Origin: Bacilli bacterium
GTDB lineage: Bacteria; Bacillota_I; Bacilli_A; RF39; UBA660
Length of the DNA: 64,000 nt
Reading direction: 5' to 3'
Assembly (NCBI GenBank): GCA_017410525.1
Contig: JAFQQQ010000003.1
Coordinates: 46,209 to 110,208, forward strand
Shown: in pieces, positions 16,249 to 32,349 of the stretch
Position numbering within the stretch: the first letter of the stretch is position 1
Layout of the letters: each line of letters opens with the position of its first letter
Notes under the pieces: model-generated
Seen by the model: the letters and a program-made list of their open reading frames with translations, nothing else
The model's database searches: none
What the model was told of the DNA's origin: nothing
Translations under genes and position numbers: made by a program

Positions 16249-17421
16249 ATGAAAAATATATTATTTGTAGTAGATGATAAAAAAATGGGTGGGGTTTCTA
16301 TATTATTAGAAGATATTTTAAATAGATTAAATTTAAATAAATTTAATATTGATCTTTTAATACTAAAAAATGAAGGCGAATTGTTAAGTAAAATTCCATC
16401 AAAGATAAATATACTTTATGGTGATGAATTTTTTTACCCAATAAATTATTCATTATCTTCTGCAATCAAAGAAAAAAAACTAAAAAAAATAATTGATAAA
16501 GCTTTATTAGTTTTATATATGAAAACACCAATAATAAAATATATAATAAAAAGTAAAAGAAAAAAAATATTAAAAAAACAATATGATACTGAATTGGCTT
16601 TTAAAGATGGTTTTTGTGGACTATTTGTTGGATATGGTGATTCAAAAAGAAAAGTTCAATGGTTACATGCTGATTATTCTAGCCAGGATGATATTCAAAA
16701 TTATAAAACTAAATTTAAAAAATTATATAAAAATTTTGATAGAATTGTGGGAATTTCAAAACCAGTAGCTAAATATTTTAATGATAAGTATGGTTGTGAA
16801 GATAAAACAATTTGTATATATAATTTTGTAAATACACAAAAAGTTATTGAAAAATCTAATGAATATGAAATTAAGAAAGATTCTAAAAAAATTAATTTTG
16901 TCTCTGTAGGAAGATTTCATAAAATGAAAGGGTATTTAAGACTTATACGCGTTATTAATAAATTAAATCAAAATAATGAATTTAATAATTGCCATTTAAC
17001 TATAGTTGGTGATGGTCCGGAATATAATGAAGCTATTAATTTAATAAAAGATTACGATATAGGTGATAAAATTACTTTAATTGGATCTAAACAAAATCCA
17101 TTTCCATATGTAAAAAATTCAGATTGTTTTATTATGGGATCAGTTTATGAACCGTTTGGTTTAACTGTAATTGAAGCATTAACCCTTAAAGTTCCAGTTT
17201 TATCTACTGAGGTTGCTACTATAAGGGAAATGTTATCTAAAGAATATGGATTAATTGTAGAAAACAGTGAAAAAGGTTTATATAATGGATTTAAAAAAAT
17301 AATTAATAATAAAAATTTATTAAAAAATTACAAAAAAAATGTAAAAAATTATCAATATGATACTAAAAAAATAATTAAACAAATAGAAAATTTGTTGGAA
17401 GGGAAGCTACAAAATGAATAA
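16249..17421 (+). CDS. family-4 glycosyltransferase
   Basis: C-terminal EX7E motif (YEPFGLTVIEAL). 390 aa. Confidence 0.75.
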   Translation: MKNILFVVDDKKMGGVSILLEDILNRLNLNKFNIDLLILKNEGELLSKIPSKINILYGDEFFYPINYSLSSAIKEKKLKKIIDKALLVLYMKTPIIKYIIKSKRKKILKKQYDTELAFKDGFCGLFVGYGDSKRKVQWLHADYSSQDDIQNYKTKFKKLYKNFDRIVGISKPVAKYFNDKYGCEDKTICIYNFVNTQKVIEKSNEYEIKKDSKKINFVSVGRFHKMKGYLRLIRVINKLNQNNEFNNCHLTIVGDGPEYNEAINLIKDYDIGDKITLIGSKQNPFPYVKNSDCFIMGSVYEPFGLTVIEALTLKVPVLSTEVATIREMLSKEYGLIVENSEKGLYNGFKKIINNKNLLKNYKKNVKNYQYDTKKIIKQIENLLEGKLQNE

Positions 17422-19933
17422 TTTTTTAAAAGAAGAAACAGTAAAAAAAATGTTATTTTTATTTATAATTATTCAACCATTAATGGATATATATTATTTA
17501 TATACTATTCCTAATTTAGGTGGGGTTTTTGTTTTTTCTCCTTCTACTATAATTAGATTTGTGTTTTTTGGAATTTTATGTTTATTTGCATTTCTAATTT
17601 TAAAAAAGAAAAATAAATTTAAACTTTTATGGTGGTTTATCTGTATAGTATTAATATATACATTATTTCATCATTTAAATTGTTTAAATTATAATAATGA
17701 AATATTAGGAAATCAAACTTATTCCTTAATAACTGAACTTTTTTATATTGCAAGAATGTTAATGCCTATATTATTAATCTATATAAGTTATAATTTTAAA
17801 TTAAGTGAGAAAAAATTAAGTAAAGCATTATTTATTACTGCAGCTATATTTTCTTTTACAATGGTTATAACTAATTTGTTTTTAATTGCAATACCTTCAT
17901 ATGACGGTGCGACAAATATTAAAGTAAATTTTTTACAATGGTTTTCTCTAAAAAATCAAAATATAGAATTTATCTATATTGCGTCAAAAGGTATATTTCA
18001 CATGGCAAATCAAATAAGTGGAACTTTTGTTTTAATATTACCATTGTTAATTTATTATTTTAATAAAAAACATACTTTTTTAAGATTTATAATTATTTGT
18101 TCATTAATTTTGTCAATGCTTATGTTAGGTACTCGCGTTGCTTCGTATGGAGCGATTATTATCTGCATTGCAATGTTTGTTATGTATTTATTTTTCTATA
18201 TTTTAAAAAAAGAATATAATATAAATAAAAAAGTTATAGTTTCTAATTTTTTCCTTATAATCTTTTCAATAGTTTTCTTTTGTTTTAGCCCTGTTGTTTA
18301 TAGAAATTTTACTTCGACTATACCAAGTGATGATTCATATTCAAAAGAACAAACTATTATTAAAAAATATAATACTTTATTAAAGGAAAATAATAAAAAA
18401 GAATTAATCAAATTTATAAAGGAAAACTCATTAATATTTTCTATAAGAGAAAAATATACAAATGAAGTATATCCAGCAGAAAATAATTTAAATTTTTGGA
18501 TAAATACTTTTAATTTACCAATAGAAAAAAGAAATGATGATAGAAAAATTCAACAACTTATATTGGAGGATGTATTTAATAGAAACAATTCTATTTTTGA
18601 TGTTTTTTGTGGGATTGGCTCAAGTAGAGTTAGAAATAGTAGTATATATATTGAAAAAGATTTTATAGTACATTACTATATGCTTGGAGTTTTTGGATTA
18701 TTTGTTTTTATATCTCCTTATGTAATTATCTTATGTTATAGTGTTTTTAAGGTTTTGAGAAGGAATAAACAAACTTTTAATTATAAAAATTGTACTTTTA
18801 TATTTGCTACATTTTTAACTTTGATATGTAGTATTTATAGTGGTAATGTTTTAGATGAATTAATAATTACTGTTTATTTAGGAATTGTATTAGGAACTTT
18901 ATTATCGAATATTAATAATAATAGTTCTAAACAAAAATTAGAGGATAATAAGCTTAAATTAAGTGTTATTGTTCCTGTATATAATGTAGAAAACTATTTG
19001 GAAACATGTTTGGATAGTTTGATAAATCAAACAATTACTAATTATGAAATAATAGTAGTAAATGATGGAAGTCTTGATAGTAGTCAATCTATAATTGATA
19101 AATATCAAAAATTATATCCAGATAAAATAAAAAGTTATATAAAAGAAAACGGTGGGTTAAGTGATGCTAGAAATTATGGATTAAAATATGCAAAAGGGGA
19201 GTATATTGCTTTTCTAGACAGTGATGATTATGTAGAATATAATATGTATGAATTAATGTATAATAAAGCAGTATCACAAAATTTTGATGTTGTAGCATGC
19301 AATGTAAAATATGTATATGAAAATGAAAACAAAACTTTCTTATGTAATTCTAAAATATATTCTGATCTATTTGAAGAAAAAGAAATAAAAAAACTAATGT
19401 TAGATATATATCCTGCTGTATGGAACAAAATTTATAAGAGAGAAAAATTTCAAAAATTTAAATTCAAGAAAAATGCTTGGTTCGAAGATGTTGAATACTT
19501 ATATAGAATTTTTCCTTATATTTCATCTATGGGGACTATTGATAAAGCATTAATAAATTATAAACAAAGAGAAGGTGCAATAACAAAAACTTTTGACGAA
19601 AGATTATTACACCAAATATCTAATTGGAATGGAATTGTTGAGTATTATAAAAAAAATAATTTATTAGAAAAATATGAAAAAGAAATAGAATATTGCTATG
19701 TTAGATATTTATATGCAACTCTAGTAAGTCATTCTTTGAATTATAATAATTATGATTTTTTCAAAAAGGTATTGGATGAATGTGATAAAAATGTAAAAGA
19801 AAACTTCCCTAATTATAGAAAAAATAAGTATTTATATACAAATGGCTTAAAAGGTTTATATTTATTATTTTATAATAAAAAAATTATTAAAAAATTATAT
19901 AAATATAAACATAAAAATGGAGGTAATAAATAA
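17414..19933 (+). CDS. fusion protein: N-terminal polytopic Wzy/O-antigen-ligase-like polymerase domain + C-terminal family-2 glycosyltransferase
   Basis: First ~500 aa carry about 10-12 TM helices in an O-antigen-ligase-like arrangement. Last ~330 aa have GT2 motifs LSVIVPVYNVENYL and DSDDY. Confidence 0.6.
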   Translation: MNNFLKEETVKKMLFLFIIIQPLMDIYYLYTIPNLGGVFVFSPSTIIRFVFFGILCLFAFLILKKKNKFKLLWWFICIVLIYTLFHHLNCLNYNNEILGNQTYSLITELFYIARMLMPILLIYISYNFKLSEKKLSKALFITAAIFSFTMVITNLFLIAIPSYDGATNIKVNFLQWFSLKNQNIEFIYIASKGIFHMANQISGTFVLILPLLIYYFNKKHTFLRFIIICSLILSMLMLGTRVASYGAIIICIAMFVMYLFFYILKKEYNINKKVIVSNFFLIIFSIVFFCFSPVVYRNFTSTIPSDDSYSKEQTIIKKYNTLLKENNKKELIKFIKENSLIFSIREKYTNEVYPAENNLNFWINTFNLPIEKRNDDRKIQQLILEDVFNRNNSIFDVFCGIGSSRVRNSSIYIEKDFIVHYYMLGVFGLFVFISPYVIILCYSVFKVLRRNKQTFNYKNCTFIFATFLTLICSIYSGNVLDELIITVYLGIVLGTLLSNINNNSSKQKLEDNKLKLSVIVPVYNVENYLETCLDSLINQTITNYEIIVVNDGSLDSSQSIIDKYQKLYPDKIKSYIKENGGLSDARNYGLKYAKGEYIAFLDSDDYVEYNMYELMYNKAVSQNFDVVACNVKYVYENENKTFLCNSKIYSDLFEEKEIKKLMLDIYPAVWNKIYKREKFQKFKFKKNAWFEDVEYLYRIFPYISSMGTIDKALINYKQREGAITKTFDERLLHQISNWNGIVEYYKKNNLLEKYEKEIEYCYVRYLYATLVSHSLNYNNYDFFKKVLDECDKNVKENFPNYRKNKYLYTNGLKGLYLLFYNKKIIKKLYKYKHKNGGNK

Positions 19934-21804
19934 TGAATAAATATTTTGATTTATTATATAAAGATAGTTTTATTAAATTTATAAAATTTGTAAAAAATAA
20001 TTTATTAAAAGAGAAAAAAACTTTTATTGTAACAGCTAATCCAGAAACTTTTATGTTTTCTGAAAAAGACAAAGATTTAGAAAATATTATCCTTGATAAA
20101 AATGTAACGATTGTACCAGATGGTATTGGAATTGTTAAAGCTGCTAAAATGATAAATAATCCAGTTAAAGAAAGAATAACTGGAATTGATATAGCCAATG
20201 AATTATTAGATATAGCTAATGAAAATAAATTAAGTTTATATTTATTTGGTTCTGCTAAAGAAGTAATTAAAGCAATGGAAGAAGTAATAAATAAAAAATA
20301 TCCAAATATAAAATTATTAGGCACAAGTGATGGTTATGTCAAAGATAAAGATAAAGTTTTTGAAAAAATAGCTAAATTATCTCCAGATATAGTAATGGTA
20401 GCTCTTGGAATACCAAATCAAGAAAAACTAATTTACAAGCATTACAATAAATTTAAAAAAGGTGTATTTATAGGAGTAGGTGGATCTTTTGACGTTATAA
20501 GTGGTTATAAAAAAAGAGCTCCTAAATTATTTATAAAATTAAATTTAGAATGGTTATATAGAATTTTAAAAGAACCAAAAAGAATAAAGAGATTTTATAA
20601 TAGCAATGTTAAATTTTTAATGAATATTCAAAAAAAAAAATTAAATAATAAAATTAATATATTGTTTTTAATAATTTGTTGTTTAATTTTGTTATTTGGA
20701 TTATTTAATTCTATTTTTAATCCAAAAGACATTAATCAATATGAAAATCGTACTGCATATAAAATACCAAAATTTGAACTGAAAGGTTTTATTAATAAAA
20801 CCTTGCAAGATCAAATTGAACTTTCATTTTCAGATCAAATACCAATGGCCATTCTAATGAAAAAAACATATAATTATATTCAAGCATTCACATCACAACA
20901 AATTACAAATATATTATTAAAAAACAAATGTAATAATTTATATATAAATATAAATGATAGTATTAGTACTTTTGGTTGTGATAAACACTTGGTATATAAG
21001 CAATCAACTCTAAAATCTGATAAAGAGAGTTATAAAAAAAGAATTGAAAATATAAATAAATTTATTAAAAACATGAATGGAAAGGTTTATTTATATTATA
21101 TTGAAAAAGATACAGATATAAATTTTGTTAACAATAAAAAATCTAATATATATGAATATTTAGAAAAAAATATAAATTCAAAAAATATGTATAGATTTGA
21201 AATAAACAATTTTGAAGAGTATAAACAATATTTTTATAAGACAGATCATCATTGGAATTATAAAGGTTCCTATTTAGCATATAAAGATTTAGTTAATATT
21301 TTAACTAATGAGAAACCTTTAAATTTTGAAAATGAAAAATGTATAAATGATTATTTTAGTGGTTCTAAAGCTAGTATAGGTGGTGTTTCATCTATATATA
21401 AAGAACATTTTTGTGCTTATGAATTTGAATTTCCAAAACTTGATATTTATATAAATGGTAAAAAAGAAAACTATGGAAAAGAAGAATATTATTTTAAAAA
21501 AAATAATGAATATGTTTCTTATGCTTTATTTTATGGTGATGATTATGCTGAAATAATATTTGATTCAAATAATTCTAAAAAAGAAAATATTTTAATTATT
21601 GGAGAATCATATGATAATGCTATTTTAAAATTATTATCAACTCACTTTAATAAAACATATTCAATAGATTTGCGTCATTATGAAAAATATGCAGGAGAAA
21701 AATTTAATTATTTTGATTATATTTTAGAAAAAGATATAGATAAAGTTCTTTTAATAGGTAATAAGGATTATTTTTTATTGGAAGACTTCTATTTGGAGGT
21801 ATAA
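19933..21804 (+). CDS. fusion protein: WecB/TagA/CpsF-family (GT26) ManNAc transferase + C-terminal DHHW-family domain
   Basis: N-terminal ~240 aa carry TagA motifs (GVGGSFDVISGYKKRAPK, LEWLYRILKEPKRIKRFY). A TM helix follows. The C-terminal domain contains a literal DHHW motif (KTDHHWNYKGSY). Confidence 0.7.
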   Translation: MNKYFDLLYKDSFIKFIKFVKNNLLKEKKTFIVTANPETFMFSEKDKDLENIILDKNVTIVPDGIGIVKAAKMINNPVKERITGIDIANELLDIANENKLSLYLFGSAKEVIKAMEEVINKKYPNIKLLGTSDGYVKDKDKVFEKIAKLSPDIVMVALGIPNQEKLIYKHYNKFKKGVFIGVGGSFDVISGYKKRAPKLFIKLNLEWLYRILKEPKRIKRFYNSNVKFLMNIQKKKLNNKINILFLIICCLILLFGLFNSIFNPKDINQYENRTAYKIPKFELKGFINKTLQDQIELSFSDQIPMAILMKKTYNYIQAFTSQQITNILLKNKCNNLYININDSISTFGCDKHLVYKQSTLKSDKESYKKRIENINKFIKNMNGKVYLYYIEKDTDINFVNNKKSNIYEYLEKNINSKNMYRFEINNFEEYKQYFYKTDHHWNYKGSYLAYKDLVNILTNEKPLNFENEKCINDYFSGSKASIGGVSSIYKEHFCAYEFEFPKLDIYINGKKENYGKEEYYFKKNNEYVSYALFYGDDYAEIIFDSNNSKKENILIIGESYDNAILKLLSTHFNKTYSIDLRHYEKYAGEKFNYFDYILEKDIDKVLLIGNKDYFLLEDFYLEV

Positions 21805-21807
21805 GAT

Positions 21808-23220
21808 ATGTTATTTAGTAGTTTAACATTTTTATTTGGATTTTTACCTGTTTTATTTTTAATCTACTTTATTTGTCGAAATAATTTTGCTAAAAATATT
21901 ATTTTGCTTCTATTTTCATTAATATTTTATGCTTGGGGAGAACCTAAATACATATTTTTAATGTTGTTTACAGTGTTAATTGTATATATATTTGGCATAT
22001 TAATTGATAGATGTGATAAAACAAAAAAATATATAAGAAAAAAAGTATTTTTTATAATATGTATAGTATTATTAATTTTTAGTTTAGTATTTTTTAAGTA
22101 TAGTAATTTTATCTTTCAGAACATAAATAATATTTTTGGAGCTAATATAAAAACTTTAAAAATAGTATTGCCAATAGGAATTAGTTTTTATACTTTTCAA
22201 ATTCTTTCTTATATTATTGATTTATATAATAAAAAAATAAAGGTACAAAATAATTTTTTTAATTTAGCTTTATATGTTTCATTTTTTCCTCAATTAATTG
22301 CTGGACCGATAGTTAGATATGAAACAATAGAGGAAGAAATTTCTAATAGAAAAGAAAGTTTAGAAAATATAGTTTCTGGAGCTAAAAGATTTATTATAGG
22401 ATTATCAAAAAAAATAATAATTGCTAATCAAATGGCTATATTTGCTGATTTAATTTATAATAATTATTCTGTTTCTTATGGAACATCTATAATTTGGCTT
22501 GCGACAATTGCTTATACATTTCAGATATATTTTGATTTTTCTGGATATAGTGATATGGCTATAGGTTTAGGTAAAATATTTGGATTTAATTTTTTAGAAA
22601 ATTTTGATTATCCATATATATCGACTTCTATTACTGAATTTTGGCGCAGATGGCATATATCTTTATCCAGTTGGTTTAGAGATTATGTATATATACCTTT
22701 AGGAGGAAACAGGGTAAATAAAACTAAATGGATTAGAAATATTATAATTGTTTGGTTGTTAACTGGTTTATGGCATGGTGCTGCTTGGAATTTTATCATT
22801 TGGGGATTATTTTATGGATTTTTACTTTTATTTGAAAAATTATTTTTCAAAAAAGTATTAGATAAATTACCAAAATTTATTTGTTGGTTATATACTATTT
22901 TTATTATATTAATAGGATGGCTAATTTTCAGAGTCAATTCATTAGAACAATTAATAATATATTTAAAAGAAATGTTTATATTTAATAAAACTGATTGGAT
23001 TTTTATTTTATCTAATGAGCTTACAACTTTTAATTCGTTGATTTTTATTATACCAGCAATAATTTTTTCTACACCTATCATAAAAAAAATTAATATAAAA
23101 TTTGGTGGGAAAGTTTGGTATACTACAATTTATAATATAATGTTATTAGTGCTGCTATTAGTATGTATTACTTGTTTGACAAGTTCTTCATATAATCCGT
23201 TCATTTATTTTAGATTTTAA
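21808..23220 (+). CDS. MBOAT-family membrane O-acyltransferase (AlgI/DltB-like) 1
   Basis: Signature FWRRWHISLSSWFRDYVYIPLGG with the catalytic His. Polytopic membrane protein. Confidence 0.85.
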   Translation: MLFSSLTFLFGFLPVLFLIYFICRNNFAKNIILLLFSLIFYAWGEPKYIFLMLFTVLIVYIFGILIDRCDKTKKYIRKKVFFIICIVLLIFSLVFFKYSNFIFQNINNIFGANIKTLKIVLPIGISFYTFQILSYIIDLYNKKIKVQNNFFNLALYVSFFPQLIAGPIVRYETIEEEISNRKESLENIVSGAKRFIIGLSKKIIIANQMAIFADLIYNNYSVSYGTSIIWLATIAYTFQIYFDFSGYSDMAIGLGKIFGFNFLENFDYPYISTSITEFWRRWHISLSSWFRDYVYIPLGGNRVNKTKWIRNIIIVWLLTGLWHGAAWNFIIWGLFYGFLLLFEKLFFKKVLDKLPKFICWLYTIFIILIGWLIFRVNSLEQLIIYLKEMFIFNKTDWIFILSNELTTFNSLIFIIPAIIFSTPIIKKINIKFGGKVWYTTIYNIMLLVLLLVCITCLTSSSYNPFIYFRF

Positions 23221-23247
23221 TAGTTAAAAAAGAGAGGAAGTTTAAAA

Positions 23248-24696
23248 ATGTTGTTTAATTCATTTAAGTTTTTAATTTTTTTTCCAATTGTTACTTGTAT
23301 ATATTTTTTAATAAAAAAAGATAATATTAAATTAATTTGGTTATTGATTTGCAGTTACTTTTTTTACATGTGTTGGAATCCAATTTTTGCTTTATTAATG
23401 TTGTTTTCTACCTTTGTTACTTATATTTTTAGTTTATTAATGGAAAAATACAAAAAGCATAAAAAATTATTTTTAATTTTAAGTTTAATTATAAACTTGT
23501 TAATATTATTTTGTTTTAAATATCTTACTTTTATAATTGAAAATATAAATAATATATTTAAATTCTTCAATATTAGTGGTATAAAAACATTTGATATATT
23601 ATTACCAGTAGGTATTTCATTTTATACATTTCAGGCATTAAGTTATTCTTTTGATGTTTATAGGAATGATGTAAAAGTAGAAAAAAATTTTATAAAATAT
23701 GCACTTTTTGTTTCTTTTTTTCCACAATTAGTAGCTGGTCCCATTGAAAAGTCAAAAATATTTTTGAGTCAGTTTAATTTAAAACACAAATTTGATTATA
23801 ATAAAGTTAAAAACGGTATTTTAATAATGTTAGGTGGTTTTATTTTAAAACTTGTTATTGCTGATCGAGCTGCAATAGCAGTAAATCAAGTATATAATAA
23901 TTTATCATTATATACAGGATTATCATTAATATTAGCAACTGTACTTTTTGCTTTTCAAATATATTGTGATTTTTATGCTTATTCATTAATAGCAAAAGGG
24001 TCTGCACAGGTATTAGGATATAATTTATCACAAAATTTTAATAAACCTTATTTATCAACTAGTATAAAAGATTTTTGGAGAAGGTGGCATATTTCACTTA
24101 GTACTTGGTTTAAGGAATATTTATATGTTCCACTTGGTGGTAGTAAAGTAAGTAAGTTAAAAACAATAAGAAATATTTTAATTGTTTTTTGTGTTAGTGG
24201 TTTATGGCATGGTGCAGCTTGGACATTTCTAATATGGGGGTTATTACACGGATTATATCAAGTTATAGGAATGCTTATTAAAAATATTAGAAATAAAATT
24301 TCAAATATTCTTTTATTAGAAAAACATCCATTAATACACAAAATATTTCAAATAATAATTTGTTTTATACTTGTGGATTTTGCTTGGATTTTCTTTAGAG
24401 CTAATACTTTATATGATGCTTTTTATGTAATAAAAAATATTTTTGATTTTTCAGAAGGATTAAAACTAGCTAATTTTGGTTTATCAAGAGCAAATCTTGT
24501 GTTATTATTCTTCTCTATAGTATGTTTAATGATTTATGAGATATTTAATCATAAGTTTGATATTATAAAATTTATTAATAAAAGAAACATTATTGTTAGA
24601 TGGATTTTATATTTTATAATAATATATATAATACTTATTTTTGGAATTTATGGTCCAGGTTATGATGCTTCTCAATTTATATATTTTCAATTTTAG
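23248..24696 (+). CDS. MBOAT-family membrane O-acyltransferase (AlgI/DltB-like) 2
   Basis: Paralogue of the upstream gene. Signature FWRRWHISLSTWFKEYLYVPLGG. Confidence 0.85.
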   Translation: MLFNSFKFLIFFPIVTCIYFLIKKDNIKLIWLLICSYFFYMCWNPIFALLMLFSTFVTYIFSLLMEKYKKHKKLFLILSLIINLLILFCFKYLTFIIENINNIFKFFNISGIKTFDILLPVGISFYTFQALSYSFDVYRNDVKVEKNFIKYALFVSFFPQLVAGPIEKSKIFLSQFNLKHKFDYNKVKNGILIMLGGFILKLVIADRAAIAVNQVYNNLSLYTGLSLILATVLFAFQIYCDFYAYSLIAKGSAQVLGYNLSQNFNKPYLSTSIKDFWRRWHISLSTWFKEYLYVPLGGSKVSKLKTIRNILIVFCVSGLWHGAAWTFLIWGLLHGLYQVIGMLIKNIRNKISNILLLEKHPLIHKIFQIIICFILVDFAWIFFRANTLYDAFYVIKNIFDFSEGLKLANFGLSRANLVLLFFSIVCLMIYEIFNHKFDIIKFINKRNIIVRWILYFIIIYIILIFGIYGPGYDASQFIYFQF

Positions 24697-24705
24697 GAGG
24701 TATAC

Positions 24706-25647
24706 ATGAAAAAAATTATAATTAAAGTTATTATATTTACAGTTTTATTTTCTATTTCACTTTTTGTAGTTTCAAAAATTTTTGTTAGAAAAGGTGATGG
24801 TTATGGAACTGATGTACTTTCATTCTATAATGAGAAAGAAAATTCTATGGATTTAATATTTTTTGGATCATCACATAGTTATTCAACGTTTTCTCCTAAA
24901 GTTTTAGAAGAAAAAACAGGGTTAAAGTCTTATAATTTTGCAACTCAACAACAACCTCTTTGGATTACATATCATTACATGATTGAAAGTTTAAAGTATC
25001 AAAAACCAAAATATTTTGTTTTGGAAATATTAATGACTAGTGTAAATCAAAGTTATATGGAAGAAGGAGTAAATCGCGATGCAATAGACAAAATGAGATT
25101 TTCATTTAACAAAATACAAGCAATAAATTCTAGTGTTGAAAATTTTTCTGATAGAATAAGTTATTACTTAAATATAATAAAATATCATAGCAGATGGAAT
25201 GAGTTGAGTAAAAAAGATATAGTAGATAATTTAAAAAATAATATCAGTGACTCTAAAGGGTTTACTTATTTAAAAGGAAATGTTGAGCCTGCATATAAAA
25301 ATGATGTTACTAATTTTAAAGAAACTAAAAAGATAACTAAAAAGAATAATTTATATTTAAAAAAGATTATTGAATTAGCTAAAGACAATAATATAGAATT
25401 GATTTTAGTTAAAAGTCCTTGTACAATAACTAAGGAAAATCAAGCTTATTATAATTATGTTGAAGAAATAGCAAAAGAAAATAATATTAAATATTTGAAT
25501 TATAATTTGTTATATGATATACTTGAATTAGATTTTGAAAATGATTTTTATGATAGTGGTCATTTGAAAGGTGAAGCAGCTATAAAAGTAACTAATCATT
25601 TTGCGAAGTATTTGATTGAAAAGTATGATATACAAGGAGGTAAATAA
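24706..25647 (+). CDS. membrane-anchored SGNH/DltD/AlgX-like esterase-acyltransferase partner protein
   Basis: N-terminal TM anchor. GDS-like block FFGSSHSYSTF near the N-terminus. C-terminal DSGHL (DxxH). Confidence 0.55.
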   Translation: MKKIIIKVIIFTVLFSISLFVVSKIFVRKGDGYGTDVLSFYNEKENSMDLIFFGSSHSYSTFSPKVLEEKTGLKSYNFATQQQPLWITYHYMIESLKYQKPKYFVLEILMTSVNQSYMEEGVNRDAIDKMRFSFNKIQAINSSVENFSDRISYYLNIIKYHSRWNELSKKDIVDNLKNNISDSKGFTYLKGNVEPAYKNDVTNFKETKKITKKNNLYLKKIIELAKDNNIELILVKSPCTITKENQAYYNYVEEIAKENNIKYLNYNLLYDILELDFENDFYDSGHLKGEAAIKVTNHFAKYLIEKYDIQGGK

Positions 25648-26756
25648 TGATAAAAGTTATGACTGTTTTTGGAACTAGACCAGAAGCTATAAAAATGGCC
25701 CCGTTAGTTAAGGAGTTAAATTCTAGAGAAGAAATAGAAAGTATAGTATGTGTTACTGCTCAGCATAGAGAGATGTTGGATCAAGTATTAGAAACATTTG
25801 ATATTAAACCTGATTATGATTTAAATATAATGAAACAAGGACAAACATTAGGTGATGTTACTACAAGAGCGCTTAAAGGTCTTGAAGCAGTAATTAAGGA
25901 AATTAATCCTGATATAGTTTTAGTACATGGTGATACTACTACTACTTTTGCAGGAGCTTTAGCCGCCTTCTACAATCAAGTTGATATTGGTCATGTAGAA
26001 GCTGGATTAAGAACTTATGATAAATATTCACCATATCCAGAAGAAATGAATAGACAAATGGTTACTTGTATGACCGATATGTATTTTGCTCCTACAAAAC
26101 TAAGTGCTTCAAATTTAATCAAAGAAGGCAGAGATAAAGAAAAAATATATATTACGGGAAATACCGCTATTGATGCTATGAAAGTCACTATAAATAAAGA
26201 ATATAAAAGCGAGATTTTTGATTGGGTAGGAAATGACAGAATGATTCTTTTAACGGCTCATAGAAGAGAAAATTTGGGTGAACCAATGAAAAATATATTT
26301 AGAGCAATTAAAAGAATAATAAATGAATTTCAAGATGTAAAAGTTGTTTATCCAATACATTTAAATCCCAAAATAAGAGAAATTGCAAACGAGATTTTTA
26401 ATGACTGTGAGAAAATTAAAATAATAGAACCTTTAGAGGTGTTTGATTTCCACAATTTTCAAAATAAATCTTACATAATATTAACAGATAGTGGTGGTAT
26501 TCAAGAAGAAGCTCCATCTTTAGGTAAACCTGTATTAGTATTAAGAGATACTACTGAAAGGCCAGAAGGAATAGAAGCTGGAACATTAAAACTTGTAGGT
26601 ACGGATGAAGAAGTAATATATAGAGAAACAAAACTATTATTAGGTAATAAAAAAATTTACGATAAAATGAGCAAAGCTAGTAATCCATATGGTGATGGAA
26701 AAGCTAGTCAAAGAATAGTAGATGCGATTATTCAAAAATATAGTAAAGCAAAATAA
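25647..26756 (+). CDS. mnaA: UDP-N-acetylglucosamine 2-epimerase (non-hydrolysing; MnaA/WecB)
   Basis: MIKVMTVFGTRPEAIKMAPL and a full-length 369-aa epimerase. Confidence 0.9.
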   Translation: MIKVMTVFGTRPEAIKMAPLVKELNSREEIESIVCVTAQHREMLDQVLETFDIKPDYDLNIMKQGQTLGDVTTRALKGLEAVIKEINPDIVLVHGDTTTTFAGALAAFYNQVDIGHVEAGLRTYDKYSPYPEEMNRQMVTCMTDMYFAPTKLSASNLIKEGRDKEKIYITGNTAIDAMKVTINKEYKSEIFDWVGNDRMILLTAHRRENLGEPMKNIFRAIKRIINEFQDVKVVYPIHLNPKIREIANEIFNDCEKIKIIEPLEVFDFHNFQNKSYIILTDSGGIQEEAPSLGKPVLVLRDTTERPEGIEAGTLKLVGTDEEVIYRETKLLLGNKKIYDKMSKASNPYGDGKASQRIVDAIIQKYSKAK

Positions 26757-26820: not shown

Positions 26821-26849
26821 TTGACAAATATTTTTAAATTTGGTATCAT
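26821..26849 (+). promoter_or_regulatory. sigma-A type promoter for the candidate ncRNA
   Basis: TTGACA (26821-26826), a 17-nt spacer, then TATCAT (26844-26849). Confidence 0.6.
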
Positions 26850-26856
26850 GTTAATT

Positions 26857-27467
26857 GTCGATGGCACATTATTCTAGTCAGAGATTTATTATGAGGACGG
26901 GGCTAAAAATCCGTTAAAGAGCATATCTGTGAAACTTCTTGTGCTTGCTTCTTTTGCCCAAATTGGGGTGAGTGCTGGAAATGAGAGTGTTGGGCATCCA
27001 TAATGGCATATGTAAATGACCCACCATTCGTGGAGACCTATTCTTGTGTTTGGCCTATACGAACAAACTGACGGACTGAATACGAAATAGGATTAAACCT
27101 ACCAAGTGGCGAAAGTTACGGGTAGTGTAGCTTGTCTTGAGTGAGTAATAGGGATTATTGATTAACAATTTAGTAAGTTTATAGCTAGAACTTATATAAG
27201 TTGCAATATGAAATATTGTTTGCAAAAAAGAATTAATAATAAAAATTTGGTGAGGAAATCTTCTAGGGTGTTGTTAATATAGGATTGCAGTGCATACTAA
27301 GTGGCAATCAAGTAGTATATTTGGTGACAATATACTGAATTCTTTAAAGGGGAACCGCCTACTGGTAACGGTAAGTAGAATTTAGGGAAATCCAACTTGA
27401 CCTAAGATGCAAAGTTAATTATATTAACGCCATTATATATTAAAGACTATTCATTAGTCTTTTTTTG
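26857..27467 (+). ncRNA. candidate large (~610 nt) structured noncoding RNA, possibly OLE-like; identity unverified
   Basis: Longest ORF-free stretch in the window. G+C is visibly higher than the flanks. Bounded by a consensus promoter and an intrinsic terminator. Many GAAA/GNRA-type loops and short stems. No ORF longer than 30 codons in either strand. Confidence 0.45.
27443..27467 (+). terminator. intrinsic terminator ending the candidate ncRNA
   Basis: AAGACTA-TTCAT-TAGTCTT hairpin followed by T7. Confidence 0.6.
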
Positions 27468-27514
27468 TTGTTAAAATAGGTATTTTGTGTTAAAATTATA
27501 ATAGGTGATAAATA

Positions 27515-27919
27515 ATGGAAGAAAATAAAAATGTTGAGATAGTACAAAATAATAAAGAGATAATGAATGAAGAATTTGCTTCTACTCAACAAGAAGTTGC
27601 AGAAGAAATAGATTCTGATTTTTCTGATATAAATAAAGAAGAAATGAAAAAAAATTATATTATTATAGCAATTCTTTATTTTGTTGTAATTATTTTATTT
27701 ATATTGTTAGTACTAGGTATAAAAAATCAAAAAGATACAGTTAAAGATAAAATAGATAGCAACAAAGAAGTTAATGATAAATTAGAACAAGAAAAAAACG
27801 AGGAAGTTGTTATTCCAGAAGAAAGACCAAAAAATCAAACTCCAGAAGAAATTATTATTCCTGATATAAATAATAATAATGGTTTAAATGATGAATTAAA
27901 TATTTTAGATCAAATATAG
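27515..27919 (+). CDS. hypothetical single-pass membrane protein with acidic N-terminus
   Basis: 134 aa. RBS AGGTGA. One TM helix. Low-complexity, E/K-rich. Confidence 0.5.
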   Translation: MEENKNVEIVQNNKEIMNEEFASTQQEVAEEIDSDFSDINKEEMKKNYIIIAILYFVVIILFILLVLGIKNQKDTVKDKIDSNKEVNDKLEQEKNEEVVIPEERPKNQTPEEIIIPDINNNNGLNDELNILDQI

Positions 27920-27927
27920 AGGTTAAC

Positions 27928-28473
27928 ATGAAAAAAAATAATAAGAAAAAAAATACGGTAGATTATAGTTGGATAATTAAAATAGTGCTTTCTAGTTTTT
28001 TAATATCAGTAGTATTTACACTTATATCAGAAACAGTAATACCTAATGTAGGAATTATATTAGGTTCAATTTTAACATTGGTTTTTATACTTGTAGGAGT
28101 TTTATTTGATATGATTGGTCTTGCTGTTGCAACCGCAGATGAAGCACAATTTAATTCAATGGTAGCTAAAAGGGTTAAAGGTGCTAAAATGGCTTTGAAA
28201 TTAAAGAAAAATGCAGATAAAGTATCAAGTTTTTGTAATGATGTAGTAGGAGATATATGTGGTATAGTATCGGGATCTACAGGCGCAGTTATTGCTATAA
28301 AAATAGTAGAATATTATAATTTTAATCCATTATTAGTTACACTTATTATAATGGGTATAATTTCTGCTTTAACAATAGGTGGTAAAGCGTTAGAAAAGGG
28401 TTATGCTATGAAAAAAAGTAATAGTATTTTATTTGGTTTTGCTAAGTTTTTAAGTTTATTTGTAAAAGAATGA
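27928..28473 (+). CDS. small four-TM membrane protein (OapA-like candidate)
   Basis: 181 aa. Four predicted TM helices. Basic loop KRVKGAKMALKLKKNADK. RBS GAGG. Confidence 0.45.
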   Translation: MKKNNKKKNTVDYSWIIKIVLSSFLISVVFTLISETVIPNVGIILGSILTLVFILVGVLFDMIGLAVATADEAQFNSMVAKRVKGAKMALKLKKNADKVSSFCNDVVGDICGIVSGSTGAVIAIKIVEYYNFNPLLVTLIIMGIISALTIGGKALEKGYAMKKSNSILFGFAKFLSLFVKE

Positions 28474-28481
28474 GGTGTTGT

Positions 28482-29402
28482 ATGAAAAATAAAGGATTCA
28501 CTCTTGTAGAATTATTAGCAGTTCTTATTATACTTGCTATTATATTTGTTATTTCTGTTCCTTTAATGACTGAAATATTAGATCAAAGTAAAAATACGCT
28601 ATATAAAAAACAAATTAATACAATTCTAGATGCAACTTATGATTATTCTTTAAAATATATTGAATATTTACCCGAAGACAATAATATCAGTTATATAACA
28701 CTAGGAGAATTAAAATATGAAGGTATAGTTGATTATGATTTAACTGATCCGGAAACAAATGAAAGATTTAAAAATGAATTAGTCATAAGTATTAACAAAG
28801 TAGGTACAGGATATAAAAATAGTGATATACATGCTAAATTAAAAGGTGACTATTTATATATAGTAGAAGTTGATAAATTAAAAGAAGCTAAAAATTTAAA
28901 ACCCATTATTACTTTGGATGGTTTAACAAAAAATACAGATGGAAATTATATTTTAACACTCGATTTAAATCAAGAAATTAATAATATTGCTTATAGTGCG
29001 ATTTCCGCAAATGGAGTAGATTTAACTAAAAAAGTAAAAAAATATATTTTATTAAATGATATTCCAACTGATAATATCACTACAACTAATTCAGGTATAT
29101 ATAAAGTTCATTATACAGTAGTAGATAACAATGGGTATGCTAATACAGCTACCTTAAGTATTATAATTGCGGATACAACAATACCTACAATTACGCTTCC
29201 AAATACAAATAAAATTGGTAAAGATGTAACAAATTTTGATTTATTAAAAAATGTTACTTGCGAAGATAACAGTGGTTATTGTGATATAGAGTTTTCTGGA
29301 GAAATAGATTATGGTGTTGTTGGAAAATATATAATTACATACACAGCAAAAGATCCAAGTGGAAATACAAGCATAAAGAAAAGAGTAATTACAATAGAAT
29401 AA
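28482..29402 (+). CDS. type IV pilin-like (prepilin N-terminal methylation domain) protein with Ig-like C-terminal region
   Basis: Classic class-III signal MKNKG/FTLVELLAVLIILAII. ATG at 28482 after GAGGTG. C-terminal beta-rich repeats. Confidence 0.65.
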   Translation: MKNKGFTLVELLAVLIILAIIFVISVPLMTEILDQSKNTLYKKQINTILDATYDYSLKYIEYLPEDNNISYITLGELKYEGIVDYDLTDPETNERFKNELVISINKVGTGYKNSDIHAKLKGDYLYIVEVDKLKEAKNLKPIITLDGLTKNTDGNYILTLDLNQEINNIAYSAISANGVDLTKKVKKYILLNDIPTDNITTTNSGIYKVHYTVVDNNGYANTATLSIIIADTTIPTITLPNTNKIGKDVTNFDLLKNVTCEDNSGYCDIEFSGEIDYGVVGKYIITYTAKDPSGNTSIKKRVITIE

Positions 29403-29472: not shown

Positions 29473-31002
29473 ATGAAAAAAATTAAGTTAATTGTATTAG
29501 TTTTATTAATAGTTTTATTAATTATAATTCTTTTTTATGAAATTTTTGGAACAAATTTATCTTACTTATCTTCTAGAGAAATAAAAGAAAATAGAATTTT
29601 AAATACAAATTTAATTACTCAATTAAAAATTAATAATGTAGATGCAATTTACGAAAAAAATACCAATACATTTTATTACACGATTCCAAGTAAATATGAA
29701 AATAATTTATATATTTTAAACTTAAATTTAGAAGATGGATTTAAATATAAAATAATTGATGAAACATTAAATATTATTAAAGTTAATTATACTAAAGAGA
29801 TAAACGTTATCATTTACAATGATAAATATTATTTTGAAACAAAAATACAATTAACAAATCTGCCTTTAATAAATATACTTAGTGAAGATGAAATTACTTC
29901 TAATGATACTAAGACACAGTTTAATTATTTTAATAATACTAATACTAAAAAAACAATTAATTTGAATAGTTTAATCAACATTAGAGGATCAACATCTAAA
30001 TGGTTTGATAAAAAATCTTATAAAATAAATTTTACTAATAAATCGTATACAGATGAAAAAGATATAAATATAGAAAATTTTTATAATGGCGATTCGTTGA
30101 TTTTAGATGCTGTTTATAGGGATCCTTCCAAAATAAGAAATGTTTTATGTATTGAGTTGTGGAATAACATTTCTAATGATTTTAGTAATGTAAATATATA
30201 TAGCGAGTTTGTAGAATTATTTATAAATAATGAATATAAAGGATTATATGTTTTAACTGAACCAATAAATAGAACTAAATTAAATTTAAATAAGACTTCT
30301 TCAAATGACACTAGTGTTATTGTAAAATCAAGTGTATGGGGAAAAATTCTTAATATAAGAGAGTATTATAAAATAGGTGAAAATGAATATTTGTATTATG
30401 AATTGAAATATCCAAATGATAAGAATATGTACGAAAAATCCTGGAATATAGTGTTAAATAAATTATCTAAATATTATAATAATGTAGATTTGTATGATGT
30501 TATAAAAAATAGTTTTAATATAGAAAATTATATTGACATGATAATATTTAATGCATTTACAAATAATGTAGATAATAAAATTGAAAAAAATAATTATTTC
30601 TATATAAATAGTTTAACAGATCCCCAACTGTTTATACAGCCTTGGGATATGGAATATACTTATGGACTTTTATTTGCAGAGAATATGTTTAACAATTTTA
30701 TAAAAAAAGAAGATTATAAAATAATATACACTAAATTTTATCACACAAATTCCTCTGAAATAAATAAATTACTAATAGAAAGATATTGGGAATTAAGAGA
30801 AAATATTTTAACTATAGATTTTTTTGATAGCTTATTAGGTAAATATTTAGATGAATTAACTAAGGGAGCTGCTTCAAGAGATTCAGAGAAGTGGTATGAA
30901 TATGATATAGAAAAAGAAATAGAAGAAATAAGAAGTTGGATTTACAATAGAATAGAATTTTTTGATGAATACGTGGAAAGCATAGAAAATGAAAAATCTT
31001 AG
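29473..31002 (+). CDS. CotH kinase-family protein
   Basis: N-terminal TM helix. CotH-like block NIRGSTSKWFDKKSYKINF. 509 aa. Confidence 0.6.
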   Translation: MKKIKLIVLVLLIVLLIIILFYEIFGTNLSYLSSREIKENRILNTNLITQLKINNVDAIYEKNTNTFYYTIPSKYENNLYILNLNLEDGFKYKIIDETLNIIKVNYTKEINVIIYNDKYYFETKIQLTNLPLINILSEDEITSNDTKTQFNYFNNTNTKKTINLNSLINIRGSTSKWFDKKSYKINFTNKSYTDEKDINIENFYNGDSLILDAVYRDPSKIRNVLCIELWNNISNDFSNVNIYSEFVELFINNEYKGLYVLTEPINRTKLNLNKTSSNDTSVIVKSSVWGKILNIREYYKIGENEYLYYELKYPNDKNMYEKSWNIVLNKLSKYYNNVDLYDVIKNSFNIENYIDMIIFNAFTNNVDNKIEKNNYFYINSLTDPQLFIQPWDMEYTYGLLFAENMFNNFIKKEDYKIIYTKFYHTNSSEINKLLIERYWELRENILTIDFFDSLLGKYLDELTKGAASRDSEKWYEYDIEKEIEEIRSWIYNRIEFFDEYVESIENEKS

Positions 31003-31666
31003 AAATGAATTAAAATATAAAATAACAGATAATGATTTTTATTTGTTAAATCTTAATTTAAAAAACTTAATAAAAAAAGATTCTAATTGTAAAGATGAGT
31101 TTTATAGCATTTCAAGTATTTATTTTGATAATTATAAAAAAACTTCTTATTATCAAGTTAAAAATGGAATAAGTGAAAGATGGAAATATAGAATAAGATT
31201 TTATAACTATGATGATTCATATATAATGTTAGAAAAGAAATATAAAATAAATGGATTAACTAATAAAAATGGTGTTAGAATTACTAGAGAAATGTTAGAT
31301 AATATTTTAAAAGGTAATGTGAAAATTGAAAAAAATCATAATAAATTATTAAACGAATTTATAATTAAAATAAAAACTGAATTATTAAAACCAATAATAT
31401 GTATTGAGTATGATAGAATACCTTATGTATATAAACTTGGAACAGTTAGATTAACTTTGGACTATAATATAAGGTATACAAATAATTATAGTGATTTATT
31501 TAATAAAAATAAAAAAGTGCATTATTTAAAAGATAAAATATTAGAAGTCAAATATAATGAATTAATTCCAGATTTTATAAGATATAGATTAGAATTAAAT
31601 CATTTAGAACAAATATCTTTTTCAAAATTTAATAATTGTATAGACAATTTAAATAGGAGGTTTTAG
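30989..31666 (+). CDS. VTC (polyphosphate-polymerase-like) domain protein
   Basis: ELKYKI..FYSISSIYFD..WKYRIRFYNYDDSYIMLEKKYK matches the bacterial VTC domain pattern. Confidence 0.65.
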   Translation: MKNLRNELKYKITDNDFYLLNLNLKNLIKKDSNCKDEFYSISSIYFDNYKKTSYYQVKNGISERWKYRIRFYNYDDSYIMLEKKYKINGLTNKNGVRITREMLDNILKGNVKIEKNHNKLLNEFIIKIKTELLKPIICIEYDRIPYVYKLGTVRLTLDYNIRYTNNYSDLFNKNKKVHYLKDKILEVKYNELIPDFIRYRLELNHLEQISFSKFNNCIDNLNRRF

Positions 31667-31668
31667 GT

Positions 31669-32349
31669 ATGATTTTAAAAGTAACCTTTGATGAAATATT
31701 TAAAGATAGTTTTTTAAATAATTTTTCATCTAATGTGTCAATTCCAACAATATGTGTGACACTTATATATACATTTTTATTATCTATATTTGTATTCTTT
31801 ATATACAAATTAACTACTAAAAATGTAATATATTCAAAGAAGTTCAATATATCAATGTCTTTGATGTCTATAATAACTGCTGCGATAGTTCTATCTATGC
31901 AAGCAAACATTACAGTATCACTTGGTATGGTTGGAGCTTTATCAATAGTAAGATTTAGAACTGCGATAAAAGAGCCGAGAGATTTACTTTTCTTATTTTG
32001 GAGTATATCTAATGGTATAATAATAGGAGCTCAGGTTTATTCAATGGCAATAGTACTTGCTATTGTGCTTGGTATAGCTATGTTATTCTTTGATATAATT
32101 CCAGAAAAAAAGATTCCATATTTACTAGTTATATATTTTAAAAGTGTAAAAACGAGAGATATAGAAATAATTCTTGGCAGTCATAAAGTAAAATATAAAT
32201 TAAAATCAGAAAATTTATCTAGTAAAGAATCTAGTTATATTTATGAATTAAAAGTTAAGAAAGATAAATCTTTTGTAGAAGAGATATTAAAAATTAAAGG
32301 AGTTAGTGAAGTTAACTTACTAAGTCAAGATGGAGAAAGTCAATATTAA
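31669..32349 (+). CDS. DUF4956 membrane protein
   Basis: SIVRFRTAIKEPRDLLFLFWSI matches the DUF4956 core. Multi-TM. Confidence 0.65.
   Translation: MILKVTFDEIFKDSFLNNFSSNVSIPTICVTLIYTFLLSIFVFFIYKLTTKNVIYSKKFNISMSLMSIITAAIVLSMQANITVSLGMVGALSIVRFRTAIKEPRDLLFLFWSISNGIIIGAQVYSMAIVLAIVLGIAMLFFDIIPEKKIPYLLVIYFKSVKTRDIEIILGSHKVKYKLKSENLSSKESSYIYELKVKKDKSFVEEILKIKGVSEVNLLSQDGESQY

What the first reader, a model, noticed from the sequence alone, without database searches (positions are those of the whole stretch)
27515..28473. Two small membrane proteins immediately downstream of the candidate ncRNA; the 181-aa four-TM protein is an OapA-like candidate
The 134-aa ORF has an acidic cytoplasmic N-terminus, one TM helix and an E/K-rich tail. 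The 181-aa ORF has four TM helices and a basic loop (KRVKGAKMALKLKKNADK). A basic loop like this could bind RNA. OLE RNA is known to be tethered to the membrane by the ~21-kDa four-TM protein OapA, encoded directly downstream of ole. The 181-aa protein has that size and topology. No strong promoter is visible between the ncRNA terminator and these genes, so partial read-through and co-transcription are plausible.
Basis: inference. Interest (0 to 1): 0.55.

Follow-up and report, generated by a model that had tools for sequence, protein, structure and literature searches.

The report
OapA gene beside OLE RNA
The 181-residue membrane protein is the normal protein partner (OapA) of the large OLE RNA encoded just upstream, and the 134-residue protein is an unannotated small membrane protein that one group of uncultured gut bacteria always keeps directly in front of the OapA gene.

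Summary
The upstream "candidate ncRNA" is a full-length OLE RNA (Rfam RF01071, 374 bits, window 26845-27449).

The 181-aa ORF (27928-28473) meets every OapA feature I could test:
- four TM helices and a basic cytoplasmic loop
- the two invariant aspartates of the DxxxD motif (D105, D109)
- a weak CNNM/DUF21 match, with no CBS or CorC domains
- a confident AlphaFold model whose best PDB matches are the CorB and CorC transmembrane domains, as published for H. halodurans OapA
- OLE upstream on the same strand in 76 of 80 species that carry a homologue

The record calls it "hypothetical protein", so it is a new member of a known family.

The 134-aa ORF (27515-27919) is a real gene of a small, unnamed family (about 64 database clusters at 90% identity, 52-146 aa). 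I found it only in the closest Bacilli MAG lineage, always directly before oapA (spacing -17 to +37 nt). It stays there even where ole is kilobases away or absent from the locus.

A conserved extended -10 promoter-like element (27468-27496) follows a structurally conserved OLE terminator.

Whether the small protein is an OapA or OLE RNP partner is inferred, not shown.

The parts
26821..26849 (+). Promoter-like site in front of ole (TTGACA-17-TATCAT with upstream TG, 11 of 12 matches)
   Evidence: It lies just 5' of the first conserved OLE nucleotides, which start near 26861 in the alignment. This is a consensus match only; no transcription data.
26845..27449 (+). OLE RNA gene (ole), full length
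   Evidence: Rfam RF01071, 374 bits (gathering score 50), E 2.5e-106, model positions 1-616 of 616.
27442..27472 (+). Intrinsic-terminator-like hairpin after OLE: AAAGACUA / UAGUCUUU stem, 5-nt loop, then a U-rich run
   Evidence: dG -7.4 kcal/mol, z -2.8; relatives have a hairpin plus T-run at the same place with different stem sequences, so the structure is conserved and the sequence is not. The consensus terminator scan missed it because the stem has fewer than 3 G-C pairs.
27468..27496 (+). Conserved promoter-like element of the small-ORF/oapA unit (TTGTTA-17-TAAAAT, extended -10 TGnTAAAAT)
   Evidence: It is conserved at -44 to -51 from the small ORF's ATG in 12 of 13 loci, including loci with no ole nearby. 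Its function as a promoter is inferred.
27515..27919 (+). Small single-pass membrane protein, 134 aa (MBQ2946746.1, 'hypothetical protein IJE04_02730'). Member of an unnamed lineage-restricted family. Conserved core DFxDIxKE..KNYI-TM-GIKNQKDTVKD; variable acidic tails; C-terminal ELNILDQI in the long forms
   Evidence: No Pfam or NCBIfam family reaches its cutoff. It sits immediately upstream of oapA in all 13 loci where it was found.
27928..28473 (+). oapA orthologue, 181 aa (MBQ2946747.1, 'hypothetical protein IJE04_02735'). Four TM helices, basic loop at 67-100, invariant D61, D105-x3-D109, S115, G116, K153, K157
   Evidence: OLE linkage across species.
28470..29402 (+). Prepilin-type (N-terminal methylation motif) protein with an Ig-like surface domain, coupled to the oapA stop codon. 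Probable true start is the ATG at 28482 (MKNKGFTLVELL)
   Evidence: PF07963 29.6 bits, PF16403 41.5 bits, TIGR02532. It follows oapA in the small-ORF lineage (L001-L013, L015, L088, L089), with only a weak match in L014, which has no small ORF. Its membership in the functional unit is inferred from gene order.

Best explanation
The window holds a complete ole locus of an uncultured gut Bacilli MAG.

**Shown here**
- ole (26845-27449) has a promoter-like site in front of it and a terminator hairpin behind it.
- The 181-aa gene encodes the OapA orthologue, a four-TM protein with a CNNM-like fold.
- The 134-aa gene is a real, lineage-restricted gene for a single-pass membrane protein. It is always joined to the 5' end of oapA and is preceded by a conserved promoter-like element.

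**From the literature, on H. halodurans**
- OapA binds OLE RNA with a stoichiometry of at least 2:1 and takes it to the membrane.
- The resulting RNP helps cells cope with cold, short-chain alcohols, excess Mg2+ and poor carbon sources.
- OapA's transmembrane domain resembles Mg2+ transporters of the CorB/CorC/MpfA type. The two invariant aspartates (D105 and D109 here) are the residues whose mutation to alanine gives a dominant-negative phenotype.

**Inferred**
- The small ORF, oapA and the downstream pilin-like Ig gene form their own transcription unit, translated in a coupled way. I put this at about 0.6.
- The small protein is an accessory membrane partner of OapA, packing through the conserved face of its TM helix (I50, L54, V58, L61, L65, G68). 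I put this at about 0.35-0.4.

My probability that the 181-aa protein is an OapA orthologue is about 0.95.
For: - OLE identity: Rfam 374 bits, full length.
- OapA features met:
  - four TM helices plus a basic loop
  - D105xxxD109 invariant in 50 diverse homologues
  - PF01595 CNNM at 34.1 bits against a cutoff of 28.4, with no other domain
- Linkage: 80 species-level loci were chosen only by OapA similarity. OLE lies upstream on the same strand in 76 of them. The median distance from the OLE end to the first aligned OapA codon is 83 nt.
- Small protein:
  - 16 plus 48 homologous clusters, all 52-146 aa
  - conserved TM core
  - dN/dS below 1
  - spacing to oapA of -17 to +37 nt in 13 loci
  - adjacency kept when a deacetylase gene separates ole (L003, L010-L012) and when no OLE is in the locus (L013, L015, L088, L089)
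- Transcription signals: a terminator with compensatory stem changes and a conserved promoter-like element.
Against: - I could not compare the protein directly with the H. halodurans BH2780 sequence.
- The OapA profile finds no PDB sequence at E<=10, so the CNNM relationship rests on the Pfam hit and the fold.
- No RNA binding, membrane localisation or transcription data exist for this organism.
- For the small protein, the only evidence of partnership is gene order.
  - Its distribution is confined to one lineage.
  - It coincides with the distribution of the downstream pilin-like gene, so it may serve that protein instead.
  - dN/dS for two close pairs is 0.76-0.79, measured on only 40 codons.
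- A transcript starting at the proposed promoter would have a leader of only about 11-12 nt, which is unusually short.
Confidence: 0.85

Rival explanations
1. The 181-aa protein is a generic DUF21/CNNM divalent-cation transporter fragment that only happens to lie near OLE. It has no specific link to the RNA.
For: Its only curated family hit is PF01595 CNNM. Databases name its homologues 'DUF21 domain-containing protein'. Its fold matches the CorB and CorC TM domains.
Against: It lacks the CBS pair and CorC_HlyC domains that define MpfA/CorB/CorC transporters (the protein is 181 aa in all). It has the OapA-specific DxxxD motif and a fourth TM helix. OLE lies upstream on the same strand in 76 of 80 species, which chance cannot give for an RNA that matched at most once in each locus examined.
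Confidence: 0.03
2. The 134-aa ORF is real but has nothing to do with OapA or OLE. It is a partner of the downstream pilin-like Ig protein, for example a membrane anchor or assembly factor of a surface structure, or a neutral hitch-hiker in the operon.
For: The small ORF and the pilin-like gene share the same narrow lineage distribution. The surrounding genes are for cell-envelope polysaccharides and surface proteins. The small gene is absent from 73 of the 80 species-level oapA loci examined, so OapA does not generally need it.
Against: It is always on the oapA side and overlaps or abuts the oapA start. It is never next to the pilin-like gene. The conserved promoter-like element drives it together with oapA.
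Confidence: 0.35
3. The two genes are expressed mainly by read-through from the ole promoter. This would match H. halodurans and most species, where ole and oapA are too close for a promoter.
For: The terminator stem is weak (8 bp, 2 G-C pairs, -7.4 kcal/mol), so some read-through is likely. In 60 of 75 species the gap between ole and oapA is 150 nt or less. Promoter-like matches are common in this AT-rich DNA: 29 found against 23 expected.
Against: The hairpin plus T-run is kept by compensatory changes. The TTGnnn / TGnTAnnnT element stays at a fixed distance from the small ORF's ATG in 12 of 13 loci, including loci with dnaE or a deacetylase gene upstream and no ole.
Confidence: 0.25
4. The 134-aa ORF is not a gene. 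It is a chance ORF, or only a leader ORF whose peptide sequence does not matter.
For: No known family matches it. Its tails are low-complexity, vary widely in length (52-146 aa) and are predicted with low confidence.
Against: The core is conserved at the protein level across about 64 clusters, with invariant L54, Y55, L65 and Q72. dN/dS is below 1 in all ten comparisons. A conserved SD sits at a fixed distance from the ATG. The TM helix is predicted with pLDDT 92-96.
Confidence: 0.05

Closest known systems
OapA (OLE-associated protein A; BH2780 of Halalkalibacterium halodurans; CLB_RS09010 of C. botulinum)
   Same: It is encoded downstream of ole on the same strand. It is small, with four TM helices and a basic cytoplasmic cluster. 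It has two invariant aspartates in a DxxxD motif, a weak CNNM/DUF21 match, and CorB 7M1U as its best structural match (PMC11332333, PMC12265935, PMC7936274).
   Different: It comes from an uncultured gut Bacilli MAG and is annotated only as hypothetical. It is separated from ole by a terminator, a promoter-like element and an extra small gene, rather than abutting ole. The locus lies among cell-envelope polysaccharide genes. RNA binding was not tested.
MpfA / CorB / CorC (CNNM-family Mg2+ transporters)
   Different: There is no CBS pair and no CorC_HlyC domain. It has four TM helices where CorB has three (PMC11332333). It has the DxxxD motif. The OapA profile finds no sequence-level match to the PDB CorB or CorC chains.
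Small single-pass accessory subunits of membrane transporters and complexes (a general class; recalled from general knowledge, not tested)
   Same: The 134-aa protein is a short single-pass membrane protein. Its gene is translationally coupled to that of a polytopic membrane protein, and one face of its TM helix is conserved.
   Different: It shows no homology to any named family, and no interaction has been shown.

Membership tests
OapA | Gene co-located with ole, downstream on the same strand | tested here: met
   OLE is at 26845-27449 and the gene at 27928-28473, both on the + strand. One small gene lies between them.
OapA | Family-wide linkage of homologues with OLE RNA | tested here: met
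   76 of 80 species-level loci, chosen by protein similarity, have OLE upstream on the same strand. The median gap is 83 nt.
OapA | Small protein with four predicted transmembrane helices | tested here: met
   Hydropathy gives segments 15-36, 43-66, 101-128 and 137-152. AlphaFold2 gives helices H13-37, H43-69, H96-130 and H134-162, with pLDDT 93.2.
OapA | Conserved cluster of positive charges on the cytoplasmic face | tested here: met
   The loop at 67-100 has 8 K/R and net charge +5; the N-terminus is +4. The basic loop is kept in the homologues. The sidedness is inferred from the positive-inside rule.
OapA | DxxxD motif with two strictly conserved aspartates (the PM1 mutant residues) | tested here: met
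   D105-V-V-G-D109. Both are invariant in 50 diverse homologues. The feature is described in PMC11332333 and PMC7936274.
OapA | Weak homology to the CNNM/DUF21 domain, with a CorB-like fold | tested here: met
OapA | Lacks the proline that is highly conserved in CNNM domains | not tested
   No residue-level alignment to a CNNM domain could be obtained. hmmscan prints no alignment, and the OapA profile does not hit the PDB CorB or CorC sequences.
OapA | Direct sequence similarity to H. halodurans BH2780 | not tested
   The BH2780 sequence could not be retrieved. The papers and their supplements hold no sequence, and the single genome scan returned only the 80 closest species.
OapA | Binds OLE RNA (at least 2:1) and localises it to the membrane | not testable with these tools
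   This needs biochemistry or cell biology.
MpfA/CorB/CorC Mg2+ transporters | [quoted passage not shown] | tested here: not met
   Only the CNNM match is present. The protein ends at residue 181, right after the TM domain.
Any curated family, for the 134-aa protein | Score above the curated cutoff in Pfam or NCBIfam | tested here: not met
   The best hit is Baculo_11_kDa at 21.3 bits against a cutoff of 28.4. No family is hit consistently across 12 members.
Type IV pilin / pseudopilin-like, for the downstream 310-aa gene | N-terminal prepilin cleavage/methylation motif | tested here: met
   PF07963 scores 29.6 bits (cutoff 21.2) and TIGR02532 scores 27.1 (cutoff 16.3). The sequence KGFTLVELL is visible.

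The most novel reading that the evidence does not exclude
In this gut Bacilli lineage the OLE ribonucleoprotein may have gained extra, lineage-specific membrane subunits. The first would be the small single-pass protein: it would pack against OapA through its conserved TM face, with its conserved basic juxtamembrane segment GIKNQKD(T)VKD near the RNA or the lipid headgroups. The second, possibly, is the pilin-like protein with an extracellular Ig domain. Such subunits could supply some of the protein shielding or extracytoplasmic contacts that the recent model of OLE as a membrane-spanning RNA says OapA alone cannot provide (PMC12265935). The fact that the small gene stays with oapA when ole moves away fits a protein-protein partnership.
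Probability: 0.2. Interest if true: 0.7.

Novelty: new variant of a known kind. Interest (0 to 1): 0.42.

Why it matters
OLE RNA is one of the largest and best-conserved bacterial non-coding RNAs whose biochemical function is still unknown. Its known obligate partners, OapA, OapB and OapC, were each a major clue.

Identifying this gene as oapA is routine: it corrects a 'hypothetical protein' label and extends OLE/OapA to uncultured animal-gut Bacilli.

Three findings are more useful to specialists.
- One lineage has rebuilt the locus. ole has become a stand-alone gene with its own terminator.
- oapA has gained its own conserved promoter-like element and two tightly coupled membrane or surface protein genes.
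- In some relatives ole is no longer nearby, yet OapA keeps all its hallmark residues.

The small protein is therefore a cheap, testable candidate for a new OLE RNP component. These loci are also natural experiments on how far oapA depends on linkage to ole.

Tried and rejected
- **Sequence search of the PDB.** The protein alone and a 50-sequence profile gave no meaningful hit. No OapA structure has been deposited, and CorB/CorC are too distant at the sequence level.
- **Looking for the BH2780 or Clostridium OapA sequence.** Papers and supplements held none.
- **The genome scan.** It returned only the 80 best species, all gut MAGs or isolates, so no model organism was reached.
- **AFDB fold search.** I wanted named UniProt OapA homologues, but the library was unavailable.
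- **Pfam and NCBIfam on the small protein and 11 relatives.** Only scattered sub-threshold hits from TM or low-complexity regions.
- **Is the small protein fused to OapA in longer homologues?** No hit. Several 'long OapA' entries are instead ORFs over-extended through the OLE 3' region.
- **The built-in terminator scan.** It found nothing because it requires 3 G-C pairs. The hairpin came from direct folding and comparison.
- **Looking for an MpfA-like CNNM protein in the window or loci.** I wanted one to align the conserved proline, but none was present.
- **Structure prediction with alignment A1.** I redid it with alignment A5 (result).

Full report
**1. What is in the sequence**

Each has a Shine-Dalgarno sequence in front of it. 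AGGTGA lies at 27503-27508, and GAGG overlaps the stop codon of the first ORF.

- The 134-aa protein has one strongly hydrophobic segment (about residues 48-69). Its N-terminal part is acidic (net -9) and its C-terminal part is E/K-rich (net -8).
- The 181-aa protein has four hydrophobic segments (15-36, 43-66, 101-128, 137-152). It has a basic N-terminus and a basic loop at 67-100 with 8 K/R, which holds the quoted KRVKGAKMALKLKKNADK.

**2. The upstream RNA**

An Rfam scan of the whole window gave one match: OLE RNA (RF01071) at 26845-27449 on the + strand. It scores 374 bits against a gathering score of 50 and covers model positions 1-616 of 616. The "candidate ncRNA" is therefore a genuine, complete ole gene.

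A near-consensus promoter-like site (TTGACA-17-TATCAT with TG) lies at 26821-26849. That is just before the first conserved OLE nucleotides.

**3. The 181-aa protein is an OapA orthologue**

The literature defines OapA by these features (PMC11332333; PMC12265935; PMC7936274; PMC12054373):
- its gene co-locates with ole
- it has four TM helices
- it has a conserved basic cluster on the cytoplasmic face
- it has a DxxxD motif, whose two strictly conserved aspartates give a dominant-negative phenotype when mutated
- it is weakly homologous to the CNNM/DUF21 domain

All the features I could test are met.
- The only Pfam hit is PF01595 CNNM at 34.1 bits (cutoff 28.4). There are no CBS or CorC domains.
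- In an alignment of 50 homologues down to 34% identity, the invariant columns are D61, D105, G108, D109, S115, G116, K153 and K157. D105-x3-D109 is therefore the DxxxD motif.
- AlphaFold2 gives a confident model (pLDDT 93.2, pTM 0.82) with four long helices and two short helices in the basic loop.

The family is large and uniform.
- There are 4230 clusters at 90% identity.
- There are 1094 representatives at 50% identity with E<=0.001, and most of the best 150 listed are 170-215 aa.
- Sources name them only "DUF21 domain-containing protein" or "hypothetical protein".
- The exact window protein is MBQ2946747.1, "hypothetical protein IJE04_02735 [Bacilli bacterium]".

**4.

A scan of one genome per species with the OapA profile returned 80 loci, selected by protein similarity only. 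They cover Bacilli, Oscillospiraceae and other Clostridia, Ca. Petromonas, and the isolate Neopoerus faecalis.

An nhmmer search with an OLE seed found OLE upstream on the same strand in 76 of the 80. The median distance from the OLE match to the first aligned OapA codon is 83 nt, and 60 of 75 measurable loci are within 150 nt. Rfam confirmed full-length OLE in the two metagenomic loci tested.

I could not compare the protein directly with BH2780. The sequence was not obtainable.

**5. The 134-aa protein**

It matches no curated family. It is identical to MBQ2946746.1, "hypothetical protein IJE04_02730".

A single-sequence search found 16 clusters. A profile of the conserved core found 48 more, all 52-102 aa and unnamed or "hypothetical".

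Alignments show a conserved core, DFxDIxKE..KNYI-(TM helix)-GIKNQKDTVKD, with invariant L54, Y55, L65 and Q72. The flanks are highly variable, acidic or Asn-rich. The long forms end in ELNILDQI.

The conserved TM residues I50, L54, V58, L61, L65 and G68 lie within +-40 degrees on a helical wheel. This is the pattern expected for a helix-packing face; that reading is an inference.

AlphaFold2 is confident only for the TM helix.

dN/dS of the 40-codon core against ten relatives is 0.21-0.79, against 0.11-0.28 for oapA. The gene is therefore coding but less constrained.

**6. Where the small gene occurs**

Among the 80 species loci it is present only in the seven closest to the window (L008-L013 and L015, with OapA identity of 64% or more). 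It is also in the metagenomic loci L001, L003, L005, L088 and L089.

In all 13 loci it lies immediately 5' of oapA, with spacing from -17 to +37 nt.

It stays there in two situations:
- when a roughly 415-aa polysaccharide deacetylase gene separates it from ole (L003, L010-L012)
- when no OLE is detectable within the 10-12 kb held for each locus (L013, L015, L088, L089), where nhmmer with a 72-sequence profile and Rfam both found nothing

In L088 the pair directly follows dnaE. The OapA proteins of these loci keep the basic loop and the SSFCNDVxGDICG motif.

The gene after oapA encodes a protein with a prepilin-type N-terminus and an Ig-like surface domain. It has essentially the same lineage distribution as the small ORF; the one exception is a weak match in L014.

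**7. Transcription signals**

Right after the last conserved OLE nucleotides, the window has an 8-bp hairpin followed by a U-run (27442-27472, dG -7.4 kcal/mol, z -2.8). Relatives have a hairpin plus T-run at the same position with quite different stem sequences. This argues for a selected terminator.

Downstream lies TTGTTA-17-TAAAAT with an upstream TG (27468-27496). The pattern TTGnnn-N13-16-TGnTAnnnT occurs 44-51 nt before the small ORF's ATG in 12 of 13 loci. The thirteenth, L005, has it by eye. It occurs in only 1.9% of background 60-nt windows, and it travels with the small ORF rather than with ole.

The small ORF, oapA and probably the pilin-like gene therefore look like a separate transcription unit. 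The terminator is weak, so some read-through from ole remains plausible. The implied leader is only about 11-12 nt, which is a reason for caution.

**8. Mechanism**

- Shown here: the gene identities, the family linkage, the fold and the conserved motifs.
- From the literature: OapA binds OLE RNA and takes it to the membrane. The RNP supports tolerance of cold, alcohol, Mg2+ and poor carbon sources. OapA is thought to be a divalent-cation transporter whose regulatory domains may be replaced by the RNA.
- Inferred here: the small protein is an accessory membrane partner of OapA. The main rival is that it serves the pilin-like protein, or is functionally unrelated.

**9. Verdict**

The OapA call is a solid result of modest novelty: a new member of a known family, and a correction to the annotation. 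The lineage-specific changes are a new variant of the known ole-oapA arrangement:
- ole has its own terminator
- oapA has its own conserved promoter-like element
- a new small membrane protein and a pilin-like protein are coupled to oapA
- ole and oapA are unlinked in some relatives

Together these give a testable candidate for an additional OLE RNP component.

Noticed in passing
L051:4213-4791 and L077:4351-4683: In two other MAG lineages a different, soluble ORF (192 and 110 aa) lies between ole and oapA. The two share the motif SKIKFYS..SKPxVxS..NKALKxVIDKDIxFLSxK. This is a second, independent insertion at the same position.
   Followed up: no
L013, L014, L015, L036, L088, L089: These oapA loci have no detectable OLE within the 5-6 kb held on each side (nhmmer profile and Rfam). 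Their OapA proteins still keep the basic loop and the DxxxD motif. Either ole has moved elsewhere in these genomes or it has been lost.
   Followed up: partly
P0204, P0205, P0210, P0231, P0246; L063:4401-5543: Some database 'long OapA' proteins are ORFs extended upstream through the conserved 3' part of OLE. Their N-termini read '..PYLSRKI..', which is translated OLE sequence. This is a gene-calling artefact that hides the RNA gene.
   Followed up: partly
window 28470-29402: This is a gene for a protein with a prepilin-type N-terminus and an Ig-like surface domain. Its SD (GAGGTG) overlaps the oapA stop codon. The probable true start is the ATG at 28482, giving MKNKGFTLVELL. It follows oapA in the small-ORF lineage; L014, which lacks the small ORF, has only a weak match.
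   Followed up: partly
window 29473-32349: A CotH / VTC-domain / DUF4956 gene trio lies downstream. It is conserved in the same order in eight related loci: L001, L003, L005, L006, L008, L009, L012 and L088.
   Followed up: no
window 26845-27449: This OLE RNA lacks the small hairpin at Rfam model positions 424-435. It also has an 11-nt insertion near model position 222. The conserved motifs are otherwise intact.
   Followed up: no
L012, L026, L035, L036, L046, L051, L052, L078: These contigs carry oapA, and all but L036 also carry OLE, yet their records are titled 'Muribaculaceae' or 'Bacteroidaceae' (Bacteroidota). The published papers read here describe OLE and OapA as features of Bacillota. 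The records are probably mislabelled or mis-binned.
   Followed up: no
window 17414-26756: The genes upstream of ole are for cell-envelope polysaccharide synthesis: glycosyltransferases, WecG, two MBOAT acyltransferases and wecB. The literature notes nusB and yqxC as common ole neighbours (PMC12054373), and neither is among the genes annotated here.
   Followed up: no
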